Made by a program: the position numbers and the translations under genes. Of a stretch of 24,792 nucleotides of DNA, positions 8,674 through 17,313 are shown in pieces (positions within the stretch are counted from its first letter, which is position 1; each line of letters begins with the position of its first letter). Source of the DNA: a virus (Duplodnaviria > Heunggongvirae > Uroviricota > Caudoviricetes); IMG/VR virus record IMGVR_UViG_2648501235_000003, positions 1-24,792 of that record, one strand, 5' to 3'. Under the pieces are notes generated by a model. It made no database searches and was not told where the DNA came from. It saw only the letters and a list, made by a program, of their open reading frames with translations.

Positions 8674-11600
8674 TCAGCATTCCTCCGTCACGTCGCATGG
8701 ACAGCATCACCGCCTGCACCCGCTGGTCAATCAGCTGCACAAGACTGCCTGCCGCCTCCGGCCCTATCTGGCCATTAGTCCCGTCATTCTGAATGGCGAT
8801 ATGGTAGACCGGGGAATACACCAGACCCGCACTACCGTTCATACTGCCCACCGCTCGCACACCCAGCGAGCCATCCGCCGCCCGGGTCAGGGGCATAATG
8901 GCTTCAGGACCGGCCTCCCCCATCAGTCCCGCCCCTTTTGCAAAGGCAAAGTACGTGGGCGTATCCACAATACTGTTGCTGTACGCACTCAGGTTTGCCG
9001 AGGTATACACGCCGCCTTTTGCATTGGCCACCGCTCCGCCCAGCCAGTCACCAATGCTGCCGAGAAATCCTCCCGCACCGGACATACCGTTTGCCGCCGT
9101 CTTAATTCCGTTGACAATCGCGGCATTCATAAGAACTTTTGATATTTCCTGCAGGATTGATGCAGCCCAGCTGCGCCATTCCACTTTATTTCCGTTCAGC
9201 ATCTCCGTGATGTTATTCACCATCCCTGAGATACCGTCTGTCGCAAGCTGTGCTGCCTGTGAGGCGTAATCGGACGCATTATCCACCCAGTTACTGAATC
9301 CCTCCTGCAGCCCTTTCTGCCAGTCCGCACGCTGCACATCCGATTCGGCATAAAAGGCTTCCTGCTCTTTCAGACGTTCACTCAGATACTGTGCATTCTG
9401 CGCCAGCGCCTGTCTGTAAAAATCCTCACTGATATCCCCGGTCTGATACTGAGACTGAAGGTCCGCATCCTTCTGGCGGAAGCTGTCGCGGATCTGCTGC
9501 AACTCCCGCATGCGTTCCCTGGCCCGTTCTCCCTGCCCGTACCCCAGCAGTTCGGCTTCATTTGATGCACGCGCAGCCACATTCTCATTCTTCAGGGTCT
9601 CTTCCCGGGATCGCAACTGTTCCCGGATTTTTTGCTGGTCAATCAGGGCCGCGTTACGCAGCAGCTCCTGCTTCTGTATCTCCGACAGGGTTTTCAGTTC
9701 ACCCAGCGCTGTCTGGTACTTCAGCTTCGCCAGCTCCGTGTTCTGACCGGCCAGTGCCAGTTGCTCTTTCTGCTGCTTCAGCAGCCGGGAAAAACTGTCT
9801 TCCGCTTTTTCCGTTTCTGATTTTCCACCCCGGGATTTAGGTTTGTTCGCCTCGTTATTACGCCAGGCTTCCAGAGCATTACTGATATAACGCTGTCTCG
9901 CCTCCTGATACGGATCCCCCACAAAACCGAGGTCATCCGCCGCATACCCCAGCCGGGCACGCTCTTTTTCTTCCCCTTTCAGTCTGGACAGGGCCAGCTC
10001 ACGCTCTGTTTTTGTCAGGGCACTCTGCTGTTTATCATCCAGAGTGGCCTGTGGCAGCCGTAACGGCACATTCACCAGTCCCTGCCGCTGCTGAAGCAGT
10101 TCATTACCCAGCCCCAGCAGACGGTTGAATTCCGTATGCTGACCGTTCATAACCAGCATGGACTGGTACACCTTATTCTGCTCTGCCGCCTGCTGACGAA
10201 TTAACGCCACACGACGGTCTTCCAGCCCGGCAAGCACATCCTGAATGGACTGCGCTTTTTCCTGCATCTGTGCCAGACGGGACTGCTCAACGGCAAGCTG
10301 CTCTGTTGCCTGAGCAAGCCCTTCCGTTACGGTCTTCACCGAGGTCAGATGGTTTATCATGAATCCGTCACCGGTCGTCCAGCCCGGGTTCGCCAGAACA
10401 TACTGATATCCTGCGATTTTTTCCTGCAGGGATTTCACCCGACTGGCCTGTTCATCAATCAGCCGGTTCTGCTCTGTCAGCGCCGCCCGTGTTCGTCCTT
10501 CATTATCTGAGGCTTCAGGCAGAGACATTGACGGCGTTTTATGCGCGATTTCATCTATCGTCAGTGCATACTGGCGCGCAGACTCCCTGGCCTGCTCCTG
10601 ATTCTGGTACAGCGTGTACCATGCTGCAGCCCCCAGCATCACCAGTCCGGGTACGCCACCAACCAGCCCCAGCGCACCGCTCATCAGACGTGAGCCCACC
10701 GCCGTTGTACTGTTCAGCGCATTCTGGGCGGCGCTTCTGGCAGCAATATTTCTGTTCAGGCGTTCCTGTGTGGCCGCCAGACGGGCCTCTGCAGCAATCT
10801 GCATCTCCGTCCCGCGGGCTGCCGCCACGGCCTGCTGAGCACGGTACACGGCTGCCCTTGCCCGCGCCGTGGCAATCTGCGTTCCCCTGAACTGTGCTTC
10901 CGCCAGTGCAACTTCATTACGTGCAGCCGTCACAAGTCCTGCCGTGGCAGACATCGCTCCGGAGGCCATATTGCCAAAGTACCGGGCCACCCCGACGGCA
11001 ACCAGTGCCCCCACGGCTGTTGCCACATTATCAATCTGTCCGGCAACACCGTTCAGCATGCCGGAGAGCGTTTTTGTCACCCCGCTGGCCTCATTCGCAC
11101 CGCCCACCCAGGCCATAAAGGCGTTTTCCACCTTTGTGATCCCGTCAGAGACCGTTTCTGGCATGGCGGCATATTCATCACGCAATGTCCCCAGCTGGCT
11201 GATTAACGCGGGCACGACTTTATCCGCCGTCAGTTGACCATCGTCCGCCATCGCCTTCAGATCTTTACGGGCCACGCCCATGCCTGCAGCCAGTGCACGA
11301 ATGATCCGGTCACCACTTTCATTGACCGAATTAAATTCCTCACCGCGCAACACACCCTGTGCCAGCGCCTGGCTGAACTGGGTGATCACCGAACCCGCCT
11401 CAGCCGTACTGGCACCGGAGATTTTCAGCCCCGTGGAAATGGCCTCCGTCACCTTCAGTACATCACCGGCACTGTAACCATATTCACGCATCGAGGCTGC
11501 CGAACGGGCAAACAGGGCCGCATTATCCGAAAAAGCGGTACCTGTCCGCTGACTGATATCCATCAGCACTTTCTGTGATGACGAAAATTCATCGGATGAC

Positions 11601-11908
11601 TGTGATGCCTGTTTCAGACGGGCATTCACGGAACTCCACTCATCAGCCAATGAAATCAGGTGTCCGGTGGCAAAGGCACCGGCAAATGCGCCAGCCATTC
11701 CGACAGCCGAAGCGCGGATTTCCGTCAACTGGCTGTTCAGTTCTGCCAGGGCACGTCGCTGCTCCCGGGCTGCCGCAGCGGCCTGACGCCCGCCATTCTG
11801 CAGGGTCCGGTAATATTCACTGCCCATACGGGAAGCCCGCTGGATCTCCGACTGGAATGACTGTGAATTTGCCGAAATTTTGATAATCAGTTCACGTAAC
11901 GTCGCCAT
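8666..11908 (-). CDS. H: Tail tape measure protein H
   Basis: 1080 aa, MATLRELIIKISANSQSFQSE..., coiled-coil and Gly/Ala-rich segments typical of tape measure proteins; ATG at 11908 preceded by GGAGAAAGGTGA. Confidence 0.92.
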   Translation of the reverse strand: MATLRELIIKISANSQSFQSEIQRASRMGSEYYRTLQNGGRQAAAAAREQRRALAELNSQLTEIRASAVGMAGAFAGAFATGHLISLADEWSSVNARLKQASQSSDEFSSSQKVLMDISQRTGTAFSDNAALFARSAASMREYGYSAGDVLKVTEAISTGLKISGASTAEAGSVITQFSQALAQGVLRGEEFNSVNESGDRIIRALAAGMGVARKDLKAMADDGQLTADKVVPALISQLGTLRDEYAAMPETVSDGITKVENAFMAWVGGANEASGVTKTLSGMLNGVAGQIDNVATAVGALVAVGVARYFGNMASGAMSATAGLVTAARNEVALAEAQFRGTQIATARARAAVYRAQQAVAAARGTEMQIAAEARLAATQERLNRNIAARSAAQNALNSTTAVGSRLMSGALGLVGGVPGLVMLGAAAWYTLYQNQEQARESARQYALTIDEIAHKTPSMSLPEASDNEGRTRAALTEQNRLIDEQASRVKSLQEKIAGYQYVLANPGWTTGDGFMINHLTSVKTVTEGLAQATEQLAVEQSRLAQMQEKAQSIQDVLAGLEDRRVALIRQQAAEQNKVYQSMLVMNGQHTEFNRLLGLGNELLQQRQGLVNVPLRLPQATLDDKQQSALTKTERELALSRLKGEEKERARLGYAADDLGFVGDPYQEARQRYISNALEAWRNNEANKPKSRGGKSETEKAEDSFSRLLKQQKEQLALAGQNTELAKLKYQTALGELKTLSEIQKQELLRNAALIDQQKIREQLRSREETLKNENVAARASNEAELLGYGQGERARERMRELQQIRDSFRQKDADLQSQYQTGDISEDFYRQALAQNAQYLSERLKEQEAFYAESDVQRADWQKGLQEGFSNWVDNASDYASQAAQLATDGISGMVNNITEMLNGNKVEWRSWAASILQEISKVLMNAAIVNGIKTAANGMSGAGGFLGSIGDWLGGAVANAKGGVYTSANLSAYSNSIVDTPTYFAFAKGAGLMGEAGPEAIMPLTRAADGSLGVRAVGSMNGSAGLVYSPVYHIAIQNDGTNGQIGPEAAGSLVQLIDQRVQAVMLSMRRDGGMLSG

Positions 11909-11955
11909 TCACCTTTCTCCGGGCGTAAAAAAACCGCCTCAGCGGTTCTCATCAT

Positions 11956-12635
11956 TCATGACTGTGCTGCAAAGCTCAGCGCGTCTTCCAGCGCCGCAAA
12001 CGGATCCACCTCCGGCTTATCCTCATCCTCGCCCCAGCAGAGCATGGCGTCCTTCAGTGCAACATTCATCCCCTGTGCCCCGAAAACCGCTTTCACGATC
12101 TGTGCATTACGGATATCCCCGCGCTCATCACCCAGCGGGGACACCCTGTCAAACTCCATCCACATCATCGCCTCGCTCGCACTCAGGCTGTGCCGCAGTT
12201 CGGATAAGGTGCGCCCCAGACGGAGCGCAAGTCGCATCAGAAAGCGAATTTCCGGGCGGGCTACTTTTTTCTGGCCGACTCTGCATCAGCGATCAGTTCC
12301 AGTGCCTGACGCAGCAACCGGGCATGTACCGGACCATAGACGGCCAGCACCTGCTCACGGTCGTCCGGAGTGAACACCCGTTGCAGGTCAGTATCACACA
12401 GGACATCGCAGAACAGCGTCACATCCGCTTCCAGGTTACGGCGGGTTTTCGCCACCACCGACAGGGTATCGTCATCCTCTCCATCACCATTGAGCACTTC
12501 CTGCCACAGATACCAGGCCTCTGCCGAAGGCTCCCGCAGCACCACGCTGACATTTCCCCATTCCGGCACCTTCACCGTTTTATGACGGAACCCTGACAGT
12601 CTGGCCAGCGCCAGTGTTTTCAGATCTTTTGCCAT
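11956..12635 (-). CDS. GT: G-T tail assembly chaperone fusion made by -1 programmed ribosomal frameshift; T-frame part is 11956-12270
   Basis: The ORF downstream of G (MRLALRLGRTLSE...) is in the -1 frame relative to G and is reachable by slipping at the A_AAA_AAG heptamer at the end of G. Confidence 0.7.
12261..12635 (-). CDS. G: Tail assembly chaperone G
   Basis: 124 aa, MAKDLKTLALARLSGF...ADAESARKK; sits between the major tail protein and the tape measure as in lambda; ATG at 12635. Confidence 0.85.
   Translation of the reverse strand: MAKDLKTLALARLSGFRHKTVKVPEWGNVSVVLREPSAEAWYLWQEVLNGDGEDDDTLSVVAKTRRNLEADVTLFCDVLCDTDLQRVFTPDDREQVLAVYGPVHARLLRQALELIADAESARKK
12264..12270 (-). other. Slippery heptamer A_AAA_AAG for the G to GT -1 frameshift
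   Basis: Minus strand reads GCC AGA AAA AAG TAG; the heptamer A AAA AAG is in the G zero frame immediately before its stop codon. Confidence 0.7.
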
Positions 12636-12640
12636 AAGCC

Positions 12641-13357
12641 TTATCCGCCCGCACCATTAACCGTTACTGTACACGCATCAGAGGTAATGCTCTGCGGCTG
12701 TTCTGCAGAATCCGTTACCTCGCAGGTATAAGCCCCCTTATCACCTGACTGCGTATTGGCTTTACTGAAAGTGTCAGTAGTCTGTCCCTCTACCGGCTGA
12801 CCATCCTTCTTCCAGGCGTGTTTATAAGGCGGCGTTCCCCCGTTGACACTGACTGACATTGTCAGCAGCGCACCGGTATTCACGGTAAGTGTCTTCTCCA
12901 GATTTTTCACAAACGCCAGCGGTACCACATAGGACACCGGTTTACCCTTCAGGCGAAGTGAAAACGTTGCAGCCACCACGCCGTTGGTACCGGATGACCA
13001 GGTGTGCTGACGCACTTCCGCCAGGAACTTAAAGCCCTTACCGGACGGAAACTGCACCTTAAACGCATACACCGTGTCATTGTCATAGGCATCACGCAGG
13101 GCGTTCTGGGCCTGATTCAGATAAAAATTACCCGACATGGAAATCTCGGACGACGCCCCCAGACCGTTGATGTTCTCCTGCTCCGTGGAGCAGAGCGTGG
13201 TCACATCAATATCCTGTTTCTGCCCGGCGGTGAACTGGACTTCCTTGATGGTGCAGTCCAGGCGCAGATATTCCGCCTTATCCATAGTTTCAGCAGTCGC
13301 CGGGGCAGATGAAATCATCACCTGCGTCAGCTGTGAGCGTTCATACAAAGCAGACAT
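12641..13357 (-). CDS. Major tail tube protein with C-terminal Ig-like domain
   Basis: 238 aa immediately upstream of G/GT; C-terminal region (...GTPPYKHAWKKDGQPVEG...GDKGAYTCEVTD...) has an Ig-like sequence pattern; ATG at 13357 with AGGAGG 5 nt upstream. Confidence 0.8.
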   Translation of the reverse strand: MSALYERSQLTQVMISSAPATAETMDKAEYLRLDCTIKEVQFTAGQKQDIDVTTLCSTEQENINGLGASSEISMSGNFYLNQAQNALRDAYDNDTVYAFKVQFPSGKGFKFLAEVRQHTWSSGTNGVVAATFSLRLKGKPVSYVVPLAFVKNLEKTLTVNTGALLTMSVSVNGGTPPYKHAWKKDGQPVEGQTTDTFSKANTQSGDKGAYTCEVTDSAEQPQSITSDACTVTVNGAGG

Positions 13358-14894: not shown

Positions 14895-15952
14895 TTTCCG
14901 CCTCCAGCATCCCGTCCCCGTTTGGCAGCCAGCGTCCAGCCAGATGCATGCGCATCCCCCGGTTTATCGGCGGTCATACTGTTGCAGTGCCACAGCGAGC
15001 CCCCCCACGTCACCGTATCGCCGGGGTGGTAGGTTTCACCGGCTCTGAACACTCCGCGGTAGAGCATCACCGGCAGGGAAAATGTTTTTTCCGTACACTG
15101 GCCACTGCTCTGCCGGATCACCACAGAGAACAACCGCTCACCCGTCATACTGACGTCAATATCCGCCACCCCGTCAACCAGGCATTCCCATCCCCGCATC
15201 CCGTGCGTTTTTTCATACGCCCGCCAGAGTCCTCCAAGGTGTGTGGCATACGTGCCCCGGGGAAAGGATTTTTGATCGTCAATGGCGGGGAGCACTTCCA
15301 GTGCCGTGGCATCACGCCCGTCCTGCGGAGCCGGCAGGGCATTCACCGCCTCCAGAACCGCCTTCCGCAGAACATCGGGATCGAAGTCACGACCATCACG
15401 CGGAACGGGAATATGGCTTACAGCCTCTTTCACCATCTGCTCAAGCATCGGACGCACATCATCGGGGGTGATACTTTTGCCGTCCGCCGGTACCGGAATT
15501 CTCCCGACCGCATCATTCACCGCCTGCTTCAGTACTTCCGGATCGTAATCACGACCATCGCGGGGAGCTGGAATATGGCCCACTGCCTCCGCCACCATCT
15601 GCTCAAGCATCGGACGCACATCATCGGGGGTAATACTTTTGCCGTCCGCCGGTACCGGAATATTCGCAACCGCATCATTCACCGCCTGCTGCAGTACATC
15701 CGGATCATAATCACGACCATCACGCGGTACCGGAATGGCCCCCACAGCGTCATCCACCATCGCCTGCAGAACCGGACGCACCTCATCCACCGTCACATGC
15801 TTCTGTAATACCGCCGACAGGGAAGTCAGTTTCTCTTCAAACGCTTGTGCCTGCGAGGCCATCTTCCCCTCAAATGTGCGCTGTAAATCCGCCAGCACCG
15901 TGGAGAATTCTTCACCCAGCGCACGGATAATGGACAGTTCACGCTCTGTCAT
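14891..15952 (-). CDS. Hypothetical head-module protein with three tandem 54-aa repeats
   Basis: 353 aa; ATG at 15952 overlaps the portal stop (ATGA); coiled-coil-like N-terminus, three repeats with motif IPVPRDGRDYDPDVL...AVNDAV...IPVPADGKSITPDDVRPMLEQMV, then a Trp/Gly-rich C-terminal domain. Confidence 0.7.
   Translation of the reverse strand: MTERELSIIRALGEEFSTVLADLQRTFEGKMASQAQAFEEKLTSLSAVLQKHVTVDEVRPVLQAMVDDAVGAIPVPRDGRDYDPDVLQQAVNDAVANIPVPADGKSITPDDVRPMLEQMVAEAVGHIPAPRDGRDYDPEVLKQAVNDAVGRIPVPADGKSITPDDVRPMLEQMVKEAVSHIPVPRDGRDFDPDVLRKAVLEAVNALPAPQDGRDATALEVLPAIDDQKSFPRGTYATHLGGLWRAYEKTHGMRGWECLVDGVADIDVSMTGERLFSVVIRQSSGQCTEKTFSLPVMLYRGVFRAGETYHPGDTVTWGGSLWHCNSMTADKPGDAHASGWTLAAKRGRDAGGGK
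15302..15787 (-). repeat. Tandem 162-bp in-frame coding repeats (about 3 copies)
   Basis: caccatctgctcaagcatcggacgcacatcatcggggg occurs at 15431 and 15593 (period 162 nt); a third, more diverged copy lies upstream. Confidence 0.8.
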
Positions 15953-17313
15953 TTTCGCAGTATCCCCCTCAACATCGCTTTCACCGCACCATGCTCTGTT
16001 TCACTGATTGCCTTATTACCGTCAGATGCGCCGTCAGGCAGTTGGGCTGAAACTCTTTTCCCGGACGACGCAAACGGATCTTCACGGGCATCACGACGGG
16101 ACAGCGCCTCCAGACTGTAGTTCTGCTGCTGAAGATACAGTGCATCACCGCCGGCAAGGGGCGGCAGGTTCTCACGTTTACGGGCCTCATTGGGCGTGAG
16201 AAGCGTATTTTTCACCGACTCACCCAGCGTTTTCATGCGCCGTTCGCTGTCCATTCTCAGCAGCGTGGTGACGTCAAACTCCGTACTCTCGTTTTCCCCC
16301 GTTTCCAGCGCCTCATCCAGTAACAGCTCAATGGACTCAATCAGCGTCTGCAGACACTGGGAATAATACTGCTGCTCCAGCGCCTCCACGTTGTCACTGG
16401 AAGGCGGCTGGCCAACGCCAATCTTGTAGGCCGGGACACGGAACACCGAACAGACAATTTCAGCCGTCATCTTCAGTTGTTCCACCGTCTGCGCATCCAC
16501 CGGTGAAAACGTCGTGGGGTTATATTTCGCCCCGTTGCTCAGGATCGCCGTTTTCCCCGCATTTTCGCCGGTATACCCGCTGTCCCAGTTGCTCTTCAGT
16601 TTTTTCGCATTTTCTTCCGTTATACTGCCGGGGATCTCAATCACCCCGGACGGCCTGCCGCCATTTCTGAAAAAAGACGTTGAATTTGCCTGAATATGAT
16701 GCCCCTGCGTGGCCGCCAGCCCGGCGGCATACACCGGCGGCAGCCCCACAAGCGGATGAAAAAAACAGTTAAACCGGTCGTGGATCACTTCCCTGGCAGG
16801 CACCGTCACCGCCTCCGTGATCCCGCAGTTCCGGTCCGGCGTGATGCGGTAGAACACCTCGCCGTCATCCGCCACCAGAGGTTCAACCCGGCTCCAGTCC
16901 AGAATACGCAGTTCTTTGATCTGCCCCCGGGAGTTACGGATTTTCAGCACCACCGTATTGCCGTGACGCAGTTTGGCGTTCAGCCACAGTTCAAAAAACT
17001 GGATACGATTCTGCTGTGCATTGGGACGACGACAGAGACGGGCAATATCCCCCTGCCGTTTTTCACGGCGGATCCCCTGTGTATCCGTCTGCATCAGGCG
17101 CAGCCGCATTTTGGCGATATCCTGGGATATCAGCGAAATGCAAGAAAACACCGCATGAAAGGAGAGGACACTTTCCGGATCGGCTTTCACCCCCTGCTGC
17201 CAGGCGCCGGCAAAGGGCTCAGCCACCGCCTGAAACAGGCTGGTCCAGCCCACCTCTTTTACATCACGTCCTGATTTCTGGTTTTTTCGGGTTCGTCGCA
17301 AAAAGTTCCACAT
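15949..17313 (-). CDS. Portal protein (HK97-family)
   Basis: 454 aa with FFRNGGRPSGVIE and flanking motifs characteristic of HK97-type portals; ATG at 17313. Confidence 0.85.
   Translation of the reverse strand: MWNFLRRTRKNQKSGRDVKEVGWTSLFQAVAEPFAGAWQQGVKADPESVLSFHAVFSCISLISQDIAKMRLRLMQTDTQGIRREKRQGDIARLCRRPNAQQNRIQFFELWLNAKLRHGNTVVLKIRNSRGQIKELRILDWSRVEPLVADDGEVFYRITPDRNCGITEAVTVPAREVIHDRFNCFFHPLVGLPPVYAAGLAATQGHHIQANSTSFFRNGGRPSGVIEIPGSITEENAKKLKSNWDSGYTGENAGKTAILSNGAKYNPTTFSPVDAQTVEQLKMTAEIVCSVFRVPAYKIGVGQPPSSDNVEALEQQYYSQCLQTLIESIELLLDEALETGENESTEFDVTTLLRMDSERRMKTLGESVKNTLLTPNEARKRENLPPLAGGDALYLQQQNYSLEALSRRDAREDPFASSGKRVSAQLPDGASDGNKAISETEHGAVKAMLRGILRK

What the first reader, a model, noticed from the sequence alone, without database searches (positions are those of the whole stretch)
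12241..12275. G to GT frameshift uses an A_AAA_AAG heptamer placed directly before the G stop codon
The -1 frame ORF downstream of G is reachable through the dnaX-type slippery heptamer A AAA AAG, positioned so that the zero-frame stop TAG follows immediately. The mechanism is the conserved tail chaperone frameshift, but the heptamer differs from the one I recall for lambda (G GGA AAG), and a stop codon directly after the slip site may itself stimulate shifting.
Basis: partly seen in the sequence, partly recalled or inferred. Interest (0 to 1): 0.4.

Follow-up and report, generated by a model that had tools for sequence, protein, structure and literature searches.

The report
Known phage tail-chaperone G–GT frameshift site
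This is the ordinary programmed -1 ribosomal frameshift that makes the G–T tail-assembly chaperone fusion of an HK97-like E. coli prophage; this exact sequence was already catalogued and measured at about 7% frameshifting in a published reporter assay.

Summary
Gene G (12635..12261) ends AGA AAA AAG TAG, so an in-phase A_AAA_AAG (12270..12264) sits directly before the stop (12263..12261). The -1 frame is open from there to 11956 and encodes a lambda-T-type domain.

A 75-nt cassette identical to window 12290..12216 gave 7% ± 0.79 -1 frameshifting in an E. coli GST–MBP reporter (Antonov et al. 2013, Table S2). Sharma et al. 2014 list the same gene (ECs1801, 123/124 aa identical) as a "true" A_AAA_AAG case.

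In 67 informative homologous loci (41–64% identity to the window's G):
- All keep an in-phase A_AAG.
- 42 have A_AAA_AAG.
- 45 have the stop directly after AAG.

This arrangement is therefore typical of the family. HK97 and lambda, whose stop lies 5 codons later, are the variants. I found no conserved RNA structure, no upstream Shine-Dalgarno (SD)-like sequence and no Rfam element. The internal ATG at 12237 has no SD and is not conserved.

One question stays open: is the adjacent stop a functional part of the signal? Codon-usage evidence suggests it is selected. Published data on another heptamer show a stop lowering, not raising, frameshifting.

The parts
12261..12635 (-). Gene G, tail assembly chaperone (124 aa), the zero-frame product
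   Evidence: ORF, translation. Pfam PF06222 Phage_TAC_1, E=1.7e-61, full length. 123/124 aa identical to ECs_1801 of O157 Sakai prophage Sp9.
12264..12270 (-). Slippery heptamer A_AAA_AAG (zero-frame codons AGA AAA AAG)
   Evidence: Read directly. Only heptamer in the 25-nt frameshift box. In-phase A_AAG kept in 67/67 informative homologous loci, and A_AAA_AAG in 42.
12261..12263 (-). Zero-frame stop TAG of G, directly 3' of the heptamer (next base C)
   Evidence: The stop is directly adjacent in 45/67 diverse loci: TAAA 25, TAGC 17, TAAG 2, TAAC 1.
11956..12270 (-). -1 frame ORF (T part). After the slip it reads K K V A R P E I R F L M ... and stops at 11958..11956. Predicted GT fusion is 226 aa
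   Evidence: Pfam PF06223 Phage_tail_T, E=6.4e-19. GT length.
12261..12285 (-). Frameshift box: the only stretch where a -1 shift can join G to T. It is bounded by the -1-frame TGA at 12288..12286 and by the G stop
   Evidence: In several homologues the box shrinks to the 7 nt of the heptamer itself (L093, L095, L134, L145, L149, L151, L152).
12238..12263 (-). Linker translated only in the -1 frame (V-A-R-P-E-I-R-F-L), upstream of the internal ATG
   Evidence: Val and Pro are conserved at the protein level across the family, and the Pro codon varies at its third base (CCG/CCC/CCT/CCA).
12235..12237 (-). Internal ATG used by annotation pipelines as the start of a stand-alone T. Most likely just an internal Met of GT
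   Evidence: Anti-SD pairing is -3.5 kcal/mol, equal to the median of all 527 ATGs on this strand. Real gene starts nearby give -5.8 to -12.8. The Met is replaced by Leu in L103 and L115, and the FLM motif is not kept in L149 (FFKL). PGAP annotates T from this ATG.
12210..12229 (-). Local hairpin UGCGCUCC-GUCU-GGGGCGCA, 34 nt 3' of the heptamer. Probably a by-product of coding for A-L-R-L-G-R, not a stimulator
   Evidence: Fold (z=-1.8 for 64 nt). The 134-nt fold has z=+0.17. Only 64% of cells pair across 52 homologues, with no convincing covariation, and slid controls score as high. RNAalifold finds no consensus structure.
12641..13357 (-). Major tail protein gene immediately upstream (tail tube domain plus C-terminal Ig-like domain)
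   Evidence: Pfam hits. Annotated as major tail subunit in related records.
8666..11908 (-). Tape measure protein gene immediately downstream (1080 aa)
   Evidence: PF06120, PF20155 and PF09718.

Best explanation
The window carries the late operon of a lambdoid E. coli prophage with an HK97-type tail. The operon is on the minus strand. Ribosomes translating the tail assembly chaperone gene G mostly terminate at TAG 12263..12261 and release the 124-aa G protein. A minority, about 7% in a published reporter assay, slip back one nucleotide on A_AAA_AAG (12270..12264). The single E. coli tRNA-Lys pairs weakly with AAG and re-pairs better with the overlapping AAA. These ribosomes then read GTA GCC CGC CCG... 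in the -1 frame and add the 102-residue T part, giving a 226-aa GT fusion. By analogy with lambda, G and the G part of GT coat the tape measure protein, and the T domain recruits the major tail protein. The fixed low G:GT ratio is what the frameshift provides. What is shown: the sequence anatomy, family-wide conservation of the in-phase A_AAG, protein-level conservation of the -1 frame upstream of the internal ATG, and published frameshifting of the identical cassette. What is inferred: the role of G and GT in tail assembly (from lambda), and the route of slippage. The route could be a two-tRNA slip during translocation, or a P-site (E/P) slip of tRNA-Lys while UAG waits in the A site for RF1. 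No RNA structure or SD-like stimulator appears to be involved.
For: Sequence and frames. Domain identities: PF06222 for G, PF06223 for T, flanked by the major tail and tape measure genes. HK97, whose G homologue is in the same Pfam family (PF06222), carries a curated joined CDS 'translated due to a -1 frameshift' at the homologous position, with the same 20-nt spacing to TTTCTGATG. Published measurement: Antonov et al. 2013 (PMC3711429), Table S2, cassette 'Phage_TAC 15618692', 7% ± 0.79. The cassette matches window 12290..12216 exactly. Sharma et al. 2014 (PMC4066793), Tables S4/S7, list cluster A_AAA_AAG_25 = ECs1801 'tail assembly chaperone [true]'. ECs_1801 is 123/124 aa identical with an identical junction. 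Family survey: 67/67 informative loci keep in-phase A_AAG, the -1 ORF is always 89-103 aa, and the +1 frame is short. The frameshift box is as small as 7 nt in several loci. The -1-frame linker has conserved Val and Pro, with third-base variation in the Pro codon. The internal ATG has no SD. A_AAA_AAG is among the shiftiest heptamers in E. coli (Atkins et al. 2016, PMC5009743; Sharma Table S3).
Against: No direct detection of the GT protein or its junction peptide from this prophage was found. The published assay used a short cassette between GST and MBP, not the native operon. That assay cannot by itself separate ribosomal from transcriptional slippage. The function of G and GT in this tail type is inferred from lambda, whose G belongs to a different Pfam family (PF06894). 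BLASTP finds no alignment between the two T parts, although both match PF06223.
Confidence: 0.9

Rival explanations
1. T is made on its own by initiation at ATG 12237 (or by translational coupling to G termination), as RefSeq annotates it, and no fusion is needed.
For: PGAP and several phage records annotate a separate 93-aa or 69-aa 'tail assembly protein T / minor tail protein / DUF4035' CDS. An ATG lies 24 nt after the G stop.
Against: No SD: -3.5 kcal/mol, the median for random ATGs on this strand, against -5.8 to -12.8 for neighbouring real starts. The Met is not conserved (FLL in L103 and L115, FFKL in L149). The -1 frame is open and conserved at the protein level (K-V-x-x-P) upstream of it, right back to the heptamer, in 67 loci. 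The identical cassette does frameshift at 7%. In lambda the T domain works only as part of GT (Atkins 2016 review).
Confidence: 0.03
2. The fusion arises from transcriptional slippage: RNA polymerase adds one A in the A-run, giving an mRNA that encodes GT in one frame.
For: An extra A in AGAAAAAAG would give exactly the same protein. The reporter assay of Antonov et al. does not separate the two routes, and the same paper saw efficiency rise with A-run length in another cluster. Some family members have 8-9 consecutive A (L089, L093, L150).
Against: The run here is only six A. By my recollection of the literature (not checked here), productive polymerase slippage needs about 9 or more A/T. Family members with GCA AAG, GAA AAG or G_GGA_AAG have only 3-4 A and keep the same architecture. 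The G_GGA_AAG member gave 6% in the same assay. The strict phase conservation of A_AAG, and of AAG rather than AAA as the last codon (67/67), is expected for ribosomal slippage but not for polymerase slippage.
Confidence: 0.05
3. Sub-question within the main model: the adjacent stop is only a by-product of the overlapping code (Val GTA in the -1 frame, and the natural end of the G domain) and has no effect on shifting or lowers it.
For: HK97-type, Serratia/Yersinia-type and lambda sites work, or are conserved, with the stop 1-8 codons later. The G_GGA_AAG CCG TAA member gave 6%, almost the same as 7%. In E. coli, putting a stop after the HIV heptamer lowered frameshifting, and RF2 overproduction abolished it (Horsfield 1995 as described in PMC4373837).
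Against: 45/67 loci, and 25/38 clusters at 80% identity, have the stop directly adjacent. GTA is 45/57 (79%) of the -1-frame Val codons there, against 64/263 (24%) at four conserved Val columns of G in the same loci. That points to selection on the zero-frame stop rather than on Val. Bare A_AAA_AAG without a stimulator gave 0.29% in a lacZ system against 7% for the native cassette, and no other stimulator was found. One-tRNA P-site slippage on A_AAA_AAG with a vacant A site needs no structure (Korniy et al. 2019).
Confidence: 0.5

Closest known systems
Phage lambda G / GT programmed -1 frameshift (Levin, Hendrix & Casjens 1993; Xu, Hendrix & Duda 2004, 2013, 2014, as cited in PMC5009743)
   Same: Two overlapping ORFs lie between the major tail gene and the tape measure gene. 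A -1 shift occurs near the end of G, with an A_AAG second half of the slip site decoded by tRNA-Lys. The yield is a low percentage. The T part belongs to the same Pfam family, PF06223.
   Different: Lambda uses G_GGA_AAG with the stop 5 codons downstream. Lambda G is PF06894, not PF06222. The T parts share no BLASTP-detectable similarity.
Phage HK97 gp13 and its -1 frameshift extension (NC_002167: HK97p12 and joined CDS HK97p11)
   Same: Same G family (PF06222) and T family (PF06223). The slip position is homologous, with identical 20-nt spacing to the TTTCTGATG motif. It is annotated as a -1 frameshift.
   Different: The HK97 site is CG G_GAA_AAG TCT CAA CCC CCG GCG TAA. This is a hexanucleotide-type GAA_AAG motif, not a full X_XXY_YYZ heptamer, and the stop is 5 codons later. 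The window's A_AAA_AAG-plus-stop form is the commoner state in the family.
GeneTack 'Phage_TAC' cluster 862991913 (Antonov et al. 2013) and cluster A_AAA_AAG_25 / ECs1801 (Sharma et al. 2014)
   Same: It is the same sequence. The tested 75-nt cassette is identical to window 12290..12216. ECs_1801 is 123/124 aa identical with the same junction.
   Different: Nothing material. Those papers did not discuss the adjacent stop codon or its conservation.
E. coli dnaX tau/gamma frameshift signal
   Same: Same heptamer A_AAA_AAG, and the same tRNA-Lys wobble basis for slippage.
   Different: dnaX has an upstream SD-like element and a downstream stem-loop, reaches about 50%, and gives a shorter product. 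Here there is no SD-like element, no conserved structure, about 7% shifting and a longer product.

Membership tests
Tail assembly chaperone G/GT programmed -1 frameshift of long-tailed phages (Xu et al. 2004 type) | Two overlapping ORFs located between the major tail protein gene and the tape measure gene | tested here: met
   Order on the minus strand: major tail 13357..12641, G 12635..12261, T frame 12270..11956, tape measure 11908..8666.
Tail assembly chaperone G/GT programmed -1 frameshift of long-tailed phages (Xu et al. 2004 type) | The downstream ORF is in the -1 frame, overlaps the end of G and has no translation start of its own | tested here: met
   The -1 frame is open from 12285. 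ATG 12237 has background-level SD pairing and is not conserved.
Tail assembly chaperone G/GT programmed -1 frameshift of long-tailed phages (Xu et al. 2004 type) | In-phase slippery sequence inside the overlap, conserved among homologues | tested here: met
   A_AAA_AAG at 12270..12264. In-phase A_AAG in 67/67 informative loci at 41-64% identity to the window's G.
Tail assembly chaperone G/GT programmed -1 frameshift of long-tailed phages (Xu et al. 2004 type) | A fusion protein is actually produced at a low fixed ratio | not testable with these tools
   Published reporter data for the identical cassette give 7% ± 0.79 (PMC3711429, Table S2). Native GT protein from this prophage was not found in the literature searched.
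Tail assembly chaperone G/GT programmed -1 frameshift of long-tailed phages (Xu et al. 2004 type) | G and GT are required for tail assembly and absent from virions | not tested
   Known for lambda only (review PMC5009743). Inferred here.
Pfam PF06222 (Phage_TAC_1) + PF06223 (Phage_tail_T) | Score above the curated gathering threshold | tested here: met
   G scores 206.1 bits against a cut-off of 25. The T part scores 68.6 bits against 25.9.
dnaX-type tripartite frameshift signal | Heptamer A_AAA_AAG in phase | tested here: met
dnaX-type tripartite frameshift signal | SD-like sequence 6-17 nt upstream of the heptamer | tested here: not met
   The upstream 20 nt, GCUGAUGCAGAGUCGGCCAG, contain no 4-nt match to AGGAGGU (read). 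Sharma Table S8 lists no SD for cluster A_AAA_AAG_25.
dnaX-type tripartite frameshift signal | Stable stem-loop or pseudoknot starting about 5-9 nt downstream, conserved | tested here: not met
   The only local hairpin starts 34 nt downstream. The 134-nt fold has z=+0.17. There is no consensus structure and no covariation in 52 homologues, and no Rfam frameshift element.

The most novel reading that the evidence does not exclude
The stop codon placed directly after A_AAG is a selected, working part of the signal in the PF06222 chaperone family. With UAG or UAA in the A site, peptidyl-tRNA-Lys on AAG (with tRNA-Lys on AAA in the E site) would slip to the -1 frame in kinetic competition with release factor. 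This would replace the RNA structure that other -1 signals need. It would also make the G:GT ratio depend on termination efficiency (stop identity, the following base, RF1/RF2 level). That would account for a native cassette giving 7% when the bare heptamer gives about 0.3%.
Probability: 0.35. Interest if true: 0.35.

Novelty: already known. Interest (0 to 1): 0.12.

Why it matters
The site itself adds nothing new. The conserved G–GT frameshift has been known since 1993 and 2004, and this exact sequence was catalogued and assayed in 2013–2014.

Two practical points remain:
- **Annotation.** Current automatic annotation still splits the gene into a chaperone and a stand-alone 'tail assembly protein T' or 'DUF4035' protein starting at an internal Met. 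The 801-nt G–T region occurs at ≥90% identity in 1,246 of 5,426 complete E. coli genomes, with up to 7 copies per genome. The mis-annotation is therefore widespread.
- **The adjacent stop.** It is the majority state of this chaperone family and appears to be under selection. It is a cheap, testable candidate for the unidentified feature that raises frameshifting about 20-fold above the bare heptamer.

Tried and rejected
- **IMG/VR scan with the G protein.** It returned 80 loci at 98–100% identity. They confirm invariance but carry no information on variation. I replaced them with a profile scan of one genome per species.
- **Downstream RNA stimulator.** I tried single-sequence folds, pair counting on 52 homologues and RNAalifold. 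The GCGCUCC/GGGGCGC hairpin is 34 nt away. It is broken in lineages where Arg-Thr becomes Lys-Thr, with no compensating change, and it scores no better than slid controls. Rejected as a conserved stimulator.
- **Rfam scan of 11850..12700 at E ≤ 10.** No frameshift element was found. It gave only a sub-threshold isrK-like hit in the T–H intergenic region.
- **Antisense ORFs 11880..12596 (+) and 12044..12373 (+).** No Pfam match. Treated as shadows of the G/T genes.
- **Promoter and terminator scan of 11800..12800.** Nothing relevant to the junction.
- **BLASTP of the window's G and T against lambda G and T.** No alignment. The relationship of T is visible only through the Pfam profile.
- **Chance occurrence of AAAAAAG.** The string is over-represented in the window, so the string count alone is not evidence. 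Phase and position are.
- **Papers on stop-adjacent -1 frameshifting in bacteria.** They gave one negative precedent (HIV heptamer) and one permissive mechanism (one-tRNA slip with a vacant A site). There was no direct test on A_AAA_AAG followed by a stop.

Full report
**What is in the sequence**

The genes in this part of the window run on the minus strand. Read as the reverse complement, an ORF of 124 codons starts at ATG 12635 and ends ...GCC AGA AAA AAG TAG.
- The heptamer A_AAA_AAG occupies 12270..12264, in the X_XXY_YYZ phase relative to that ORF.
- The zero-frame stop TAG (12263..12261) follows it without a gap.
- From the first A of the heptamer the -1 frame reads KKVARPEIRFLMRLALRLGRT... 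and stays open for 104 codons, to a stop at 11958..11956.
- The stretch in which a -1 shift could join the two frames is 25 nt (12285..12261). It is bounded by a -1-frame TGA upstream and the G stop downstream.
- That stretch contains no slippery motif other than this heptamer and the A_AAG inside it.

**Is it more than chance?**

The string AAAAAAG alone is not informative. It occurs 12 times in the window on both strands, against 2.5 expected. What matters is phase and place.
- Of the copies on the coding strand, only this one and one in the tail-fibre gene (1322..1316) are in the slippery phase.
- In the tail-fibre copy the -1 frame closes after 9 codons.

**What the genes are**

- The upstream ORF is a full-length match to Pfam PF06222, Phage_TAC_1 (E=1.7e-61).
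- The -1 ORF matches PF06223, Phage_tail_T (E=6.4e-19).
- The flanking genes are a major tail protein with an Ig-like C-terminal domain (13357..12641) and a 1080-aa tape measure protein (11908..8666).
- The rest of the window is a lambdoid late operon. It holds Rz, HNH, small and large terminase, a protease–capsid fusion, portal, connectors and tail completion proteins. These are followed by M/L/K/I/J homologues, Lom and a tail fibre.
- The 801-nt G–T region is 98.5–99.8% identical to the best-matching Stx1a- and Stx2c-converting phages.
- It is found in 1,246 of 5,426 complete E. coli genomes, with up to 7 copies per genome.

**It is already known and already measured**

- Antonov et al. 2013 (PMC3711429) cloned candidate frameshift cassettes between GST and MBP in E. 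coli. Their text reports 6% and 7% frameshifting for two members of an HK97-like 'phage tail assembly chaperone' cluster.
- This string is found exactly at window 12290..12216 on the minus strand.
- Sharma et al. 2014 (PMC4066793) list cluster A_AAA_AAG_25, representative ECs1801, 'tail assembly chaperone; [true]'. They cross-reference it to the GeneTack cluster.
- I fetched ECs_1801 from O157:H7 Sakai prophage Sp9. It is 123/124 aa identical to the window's G and has the identical junction.
- Phage HK97, whose G is in the same Pfam family, has a curated joined CDS 'translated due to a -1 frameshift' at the homologous position.

**Family survey**

I aligned G homologues and used the profile to fetch 69 loci from one-genome-per-species contigs, at 41–64% identity to the window's G. 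Two loci are disrupted and were set aside. In the other 67:
- The -1 frame is open for 89–103 codons, while the +1 frame is short.
- All 67 keep an in-phase A_AAG at the homologous place.
- 42 have A_AAA_AAG. The rest have GCA_AAG, GAA_AAG, GTA_AAG or G_GGA_AAG.
- In 45 of 67 the zero-frame stop follows AAG directly: TAAA 25, TAGC 17, TAAG 2, TAAC 1.
- Clustered at 80% identity, 25 of 38 clusters are stop-adjacent.
- In several loci a -1-frame stop lies just before the heptamer, so the permitted shift window is exactly the 7 nt.

The window's arrangement is therefore the commonest state of this family. HK97 is a minority variant, reading CG G_GAA_AAG TCT CAA CCC CCG GCG TAA. Lambda reads GC G_GGA_AAG TGT TCG ACG GTG AGC TGA. 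In both, the stop lies 5 codons later.

**Independent translation of T is unlikely**

- The 20 nt before ATG 12237 pair with the anti-SD at -3.5 kcal/mol. That is exactly the median of all 527 ATGs on this strand. Neighbouring real starts give -5.8 to -12.8.
- The Met is replaced by Leu in L103 and L115, and the FLM motif is not kept in L149.
- Upstream of that Met, the -1 frame shows protein-level conservation back to the slip site (K-V-x-x-P-x-x-x-F-L-M).
- The Pro codon varies at its third base (CCG, CCC, CCT, CCA).
- RefSeq nevertheless annotates T as a separate CDS, or as a 'DUF4035' protein.

**Stimulators**

- There is no SD-like sequence in the 20 nt upstream (Sharma Table S8).
- The only local hairpin (12229..12210) begins 34 nt after the heptamer.
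- The 134-nt downstream fold is no more stable than shuffles (z=+0.17).
- Across 52 homologues the hairpin pairs in 64% of cells, without convincing covariation, and slid controls score as high.
- RNAalifold finds no consensus structure.
- Rfam has no frameshift element here.
- Yet the bare heptamer without a stimulator gave 0.29% in Sharma's lacZ system, against 7% for the native cassette. The reporters differ, so this comparison is rough. It does suggest that something in the native context helps.

**The adjacent stop**

This is the one open point.

Evidence for a role:
- It is the majority state in the family.
- The -1-frame Val codon that creates the stop is GTA in 45 of 57 cases (79%). 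At four conserved Val columns of G in the same loci, GTA is 64 of 263 (24%). This points to selection on the zero-frame stop rather than on Val.
- One-tRNA P-site slippage on A_AAA_AAG with a vacant A site needs no RNA structure (Korniy et al. 2019).

Evidence against a stimulatory role:
- In E. coli a stop placed after the HIV heptamer lowered frameshifting, and RF2 overproduction abolished it (Horsfield 1995, as described in PMC4373837).
- The family member with G_GGA_AAG CCG TAA gave 6%, nearly the same as 7%.

I rate a functional role for the stop at about one in three to one in two. The direction of any effect is unknown.

**Transcriptional slippage**

This is a minor rival.
- The A-run here is only six.
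- Family members with three or four A keep the same architecture.
- Strict conservation of phase, and of AAG as the last codon, fits a ribosomal mechanism.

**Verdict**

The feature is already known and ordinary. The residual interest lies in the widespread split annotation of GT and in the untested role of the adjacent stop.

Noticed in passing
window 11927..11994 (-): Sub-threshold match to Rfam isrK (RF01394, a Salmonella prophage Hfq-binding sRNA): 27.1 bits against a gathering score of 50, E=2e-4 on 161 nt, covering the whole model. It spans the 3' end of T and the T–tape-measure intergenic region. That region contains a terminator-like hairpin AACCGC-TGAG-GCGGTT followed by seven T. It could be a diverged prophage sRNA or attenuator between T and H.
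   Followed up: partly
window 1316..1322 (-), inside tail-fibre gene 1927..608 (-): The only other in-phase A_AAA_AAG on the coding strand. The -1 frame closes after 9 codons, so a slip would give a truncated fibre. Probably incidental.
   Followed up: partly
window 11956..12237 (-) and related RefSeq records (L004, L155): Annotation pipelines call T a stand-alone CDS ('phage tail assembly protein T', 'DUF4035 domain-containing protein', 'phage minor tail protein'), with different starts in different records. None joins it to G. The sequence occurs in 1,246 of 5,426 complete E. coli genomes.
   Followed up: yes
window 22777..23118 (-): A 113-aa ORF with a TonB C-terminal domain (E=9.7e-15) sits between the Rz lysis gene and the HNH/terminase genes. 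This is an unusual, moron-like passenger in a late operon.
   Followed up: no
window 17525..19462 (-): A single 645-aa ORF combines a prohead serine protease (S78) domain with an HK97-type major capsid domain. The portal gene (17313..15949) lies downstream of it rather than upstream.
   Followed up: no
L085–L153, junction region: Where the stop is TAG, the next base is C in 17 of 17 loci (-1 frame Val-Ala). Where it is TAA, the next base is A in 25 of 28. Lineages with the stop 4–8 codons downstream mostly also lack the GCGCUCC/GGGGCGC hairpin, because Arg-Thr is replaced by Lys-Thr.
   Followed up: partly
L004 2273..3801 (NZ_CP180600.1): In an E. coli genome with a G–T region 100% identical to the window's, the adjacent tape measure gene is flagged as a pseudogene with an internal stop. 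In the window it is intact at 1080 aa.
   Followed up: no
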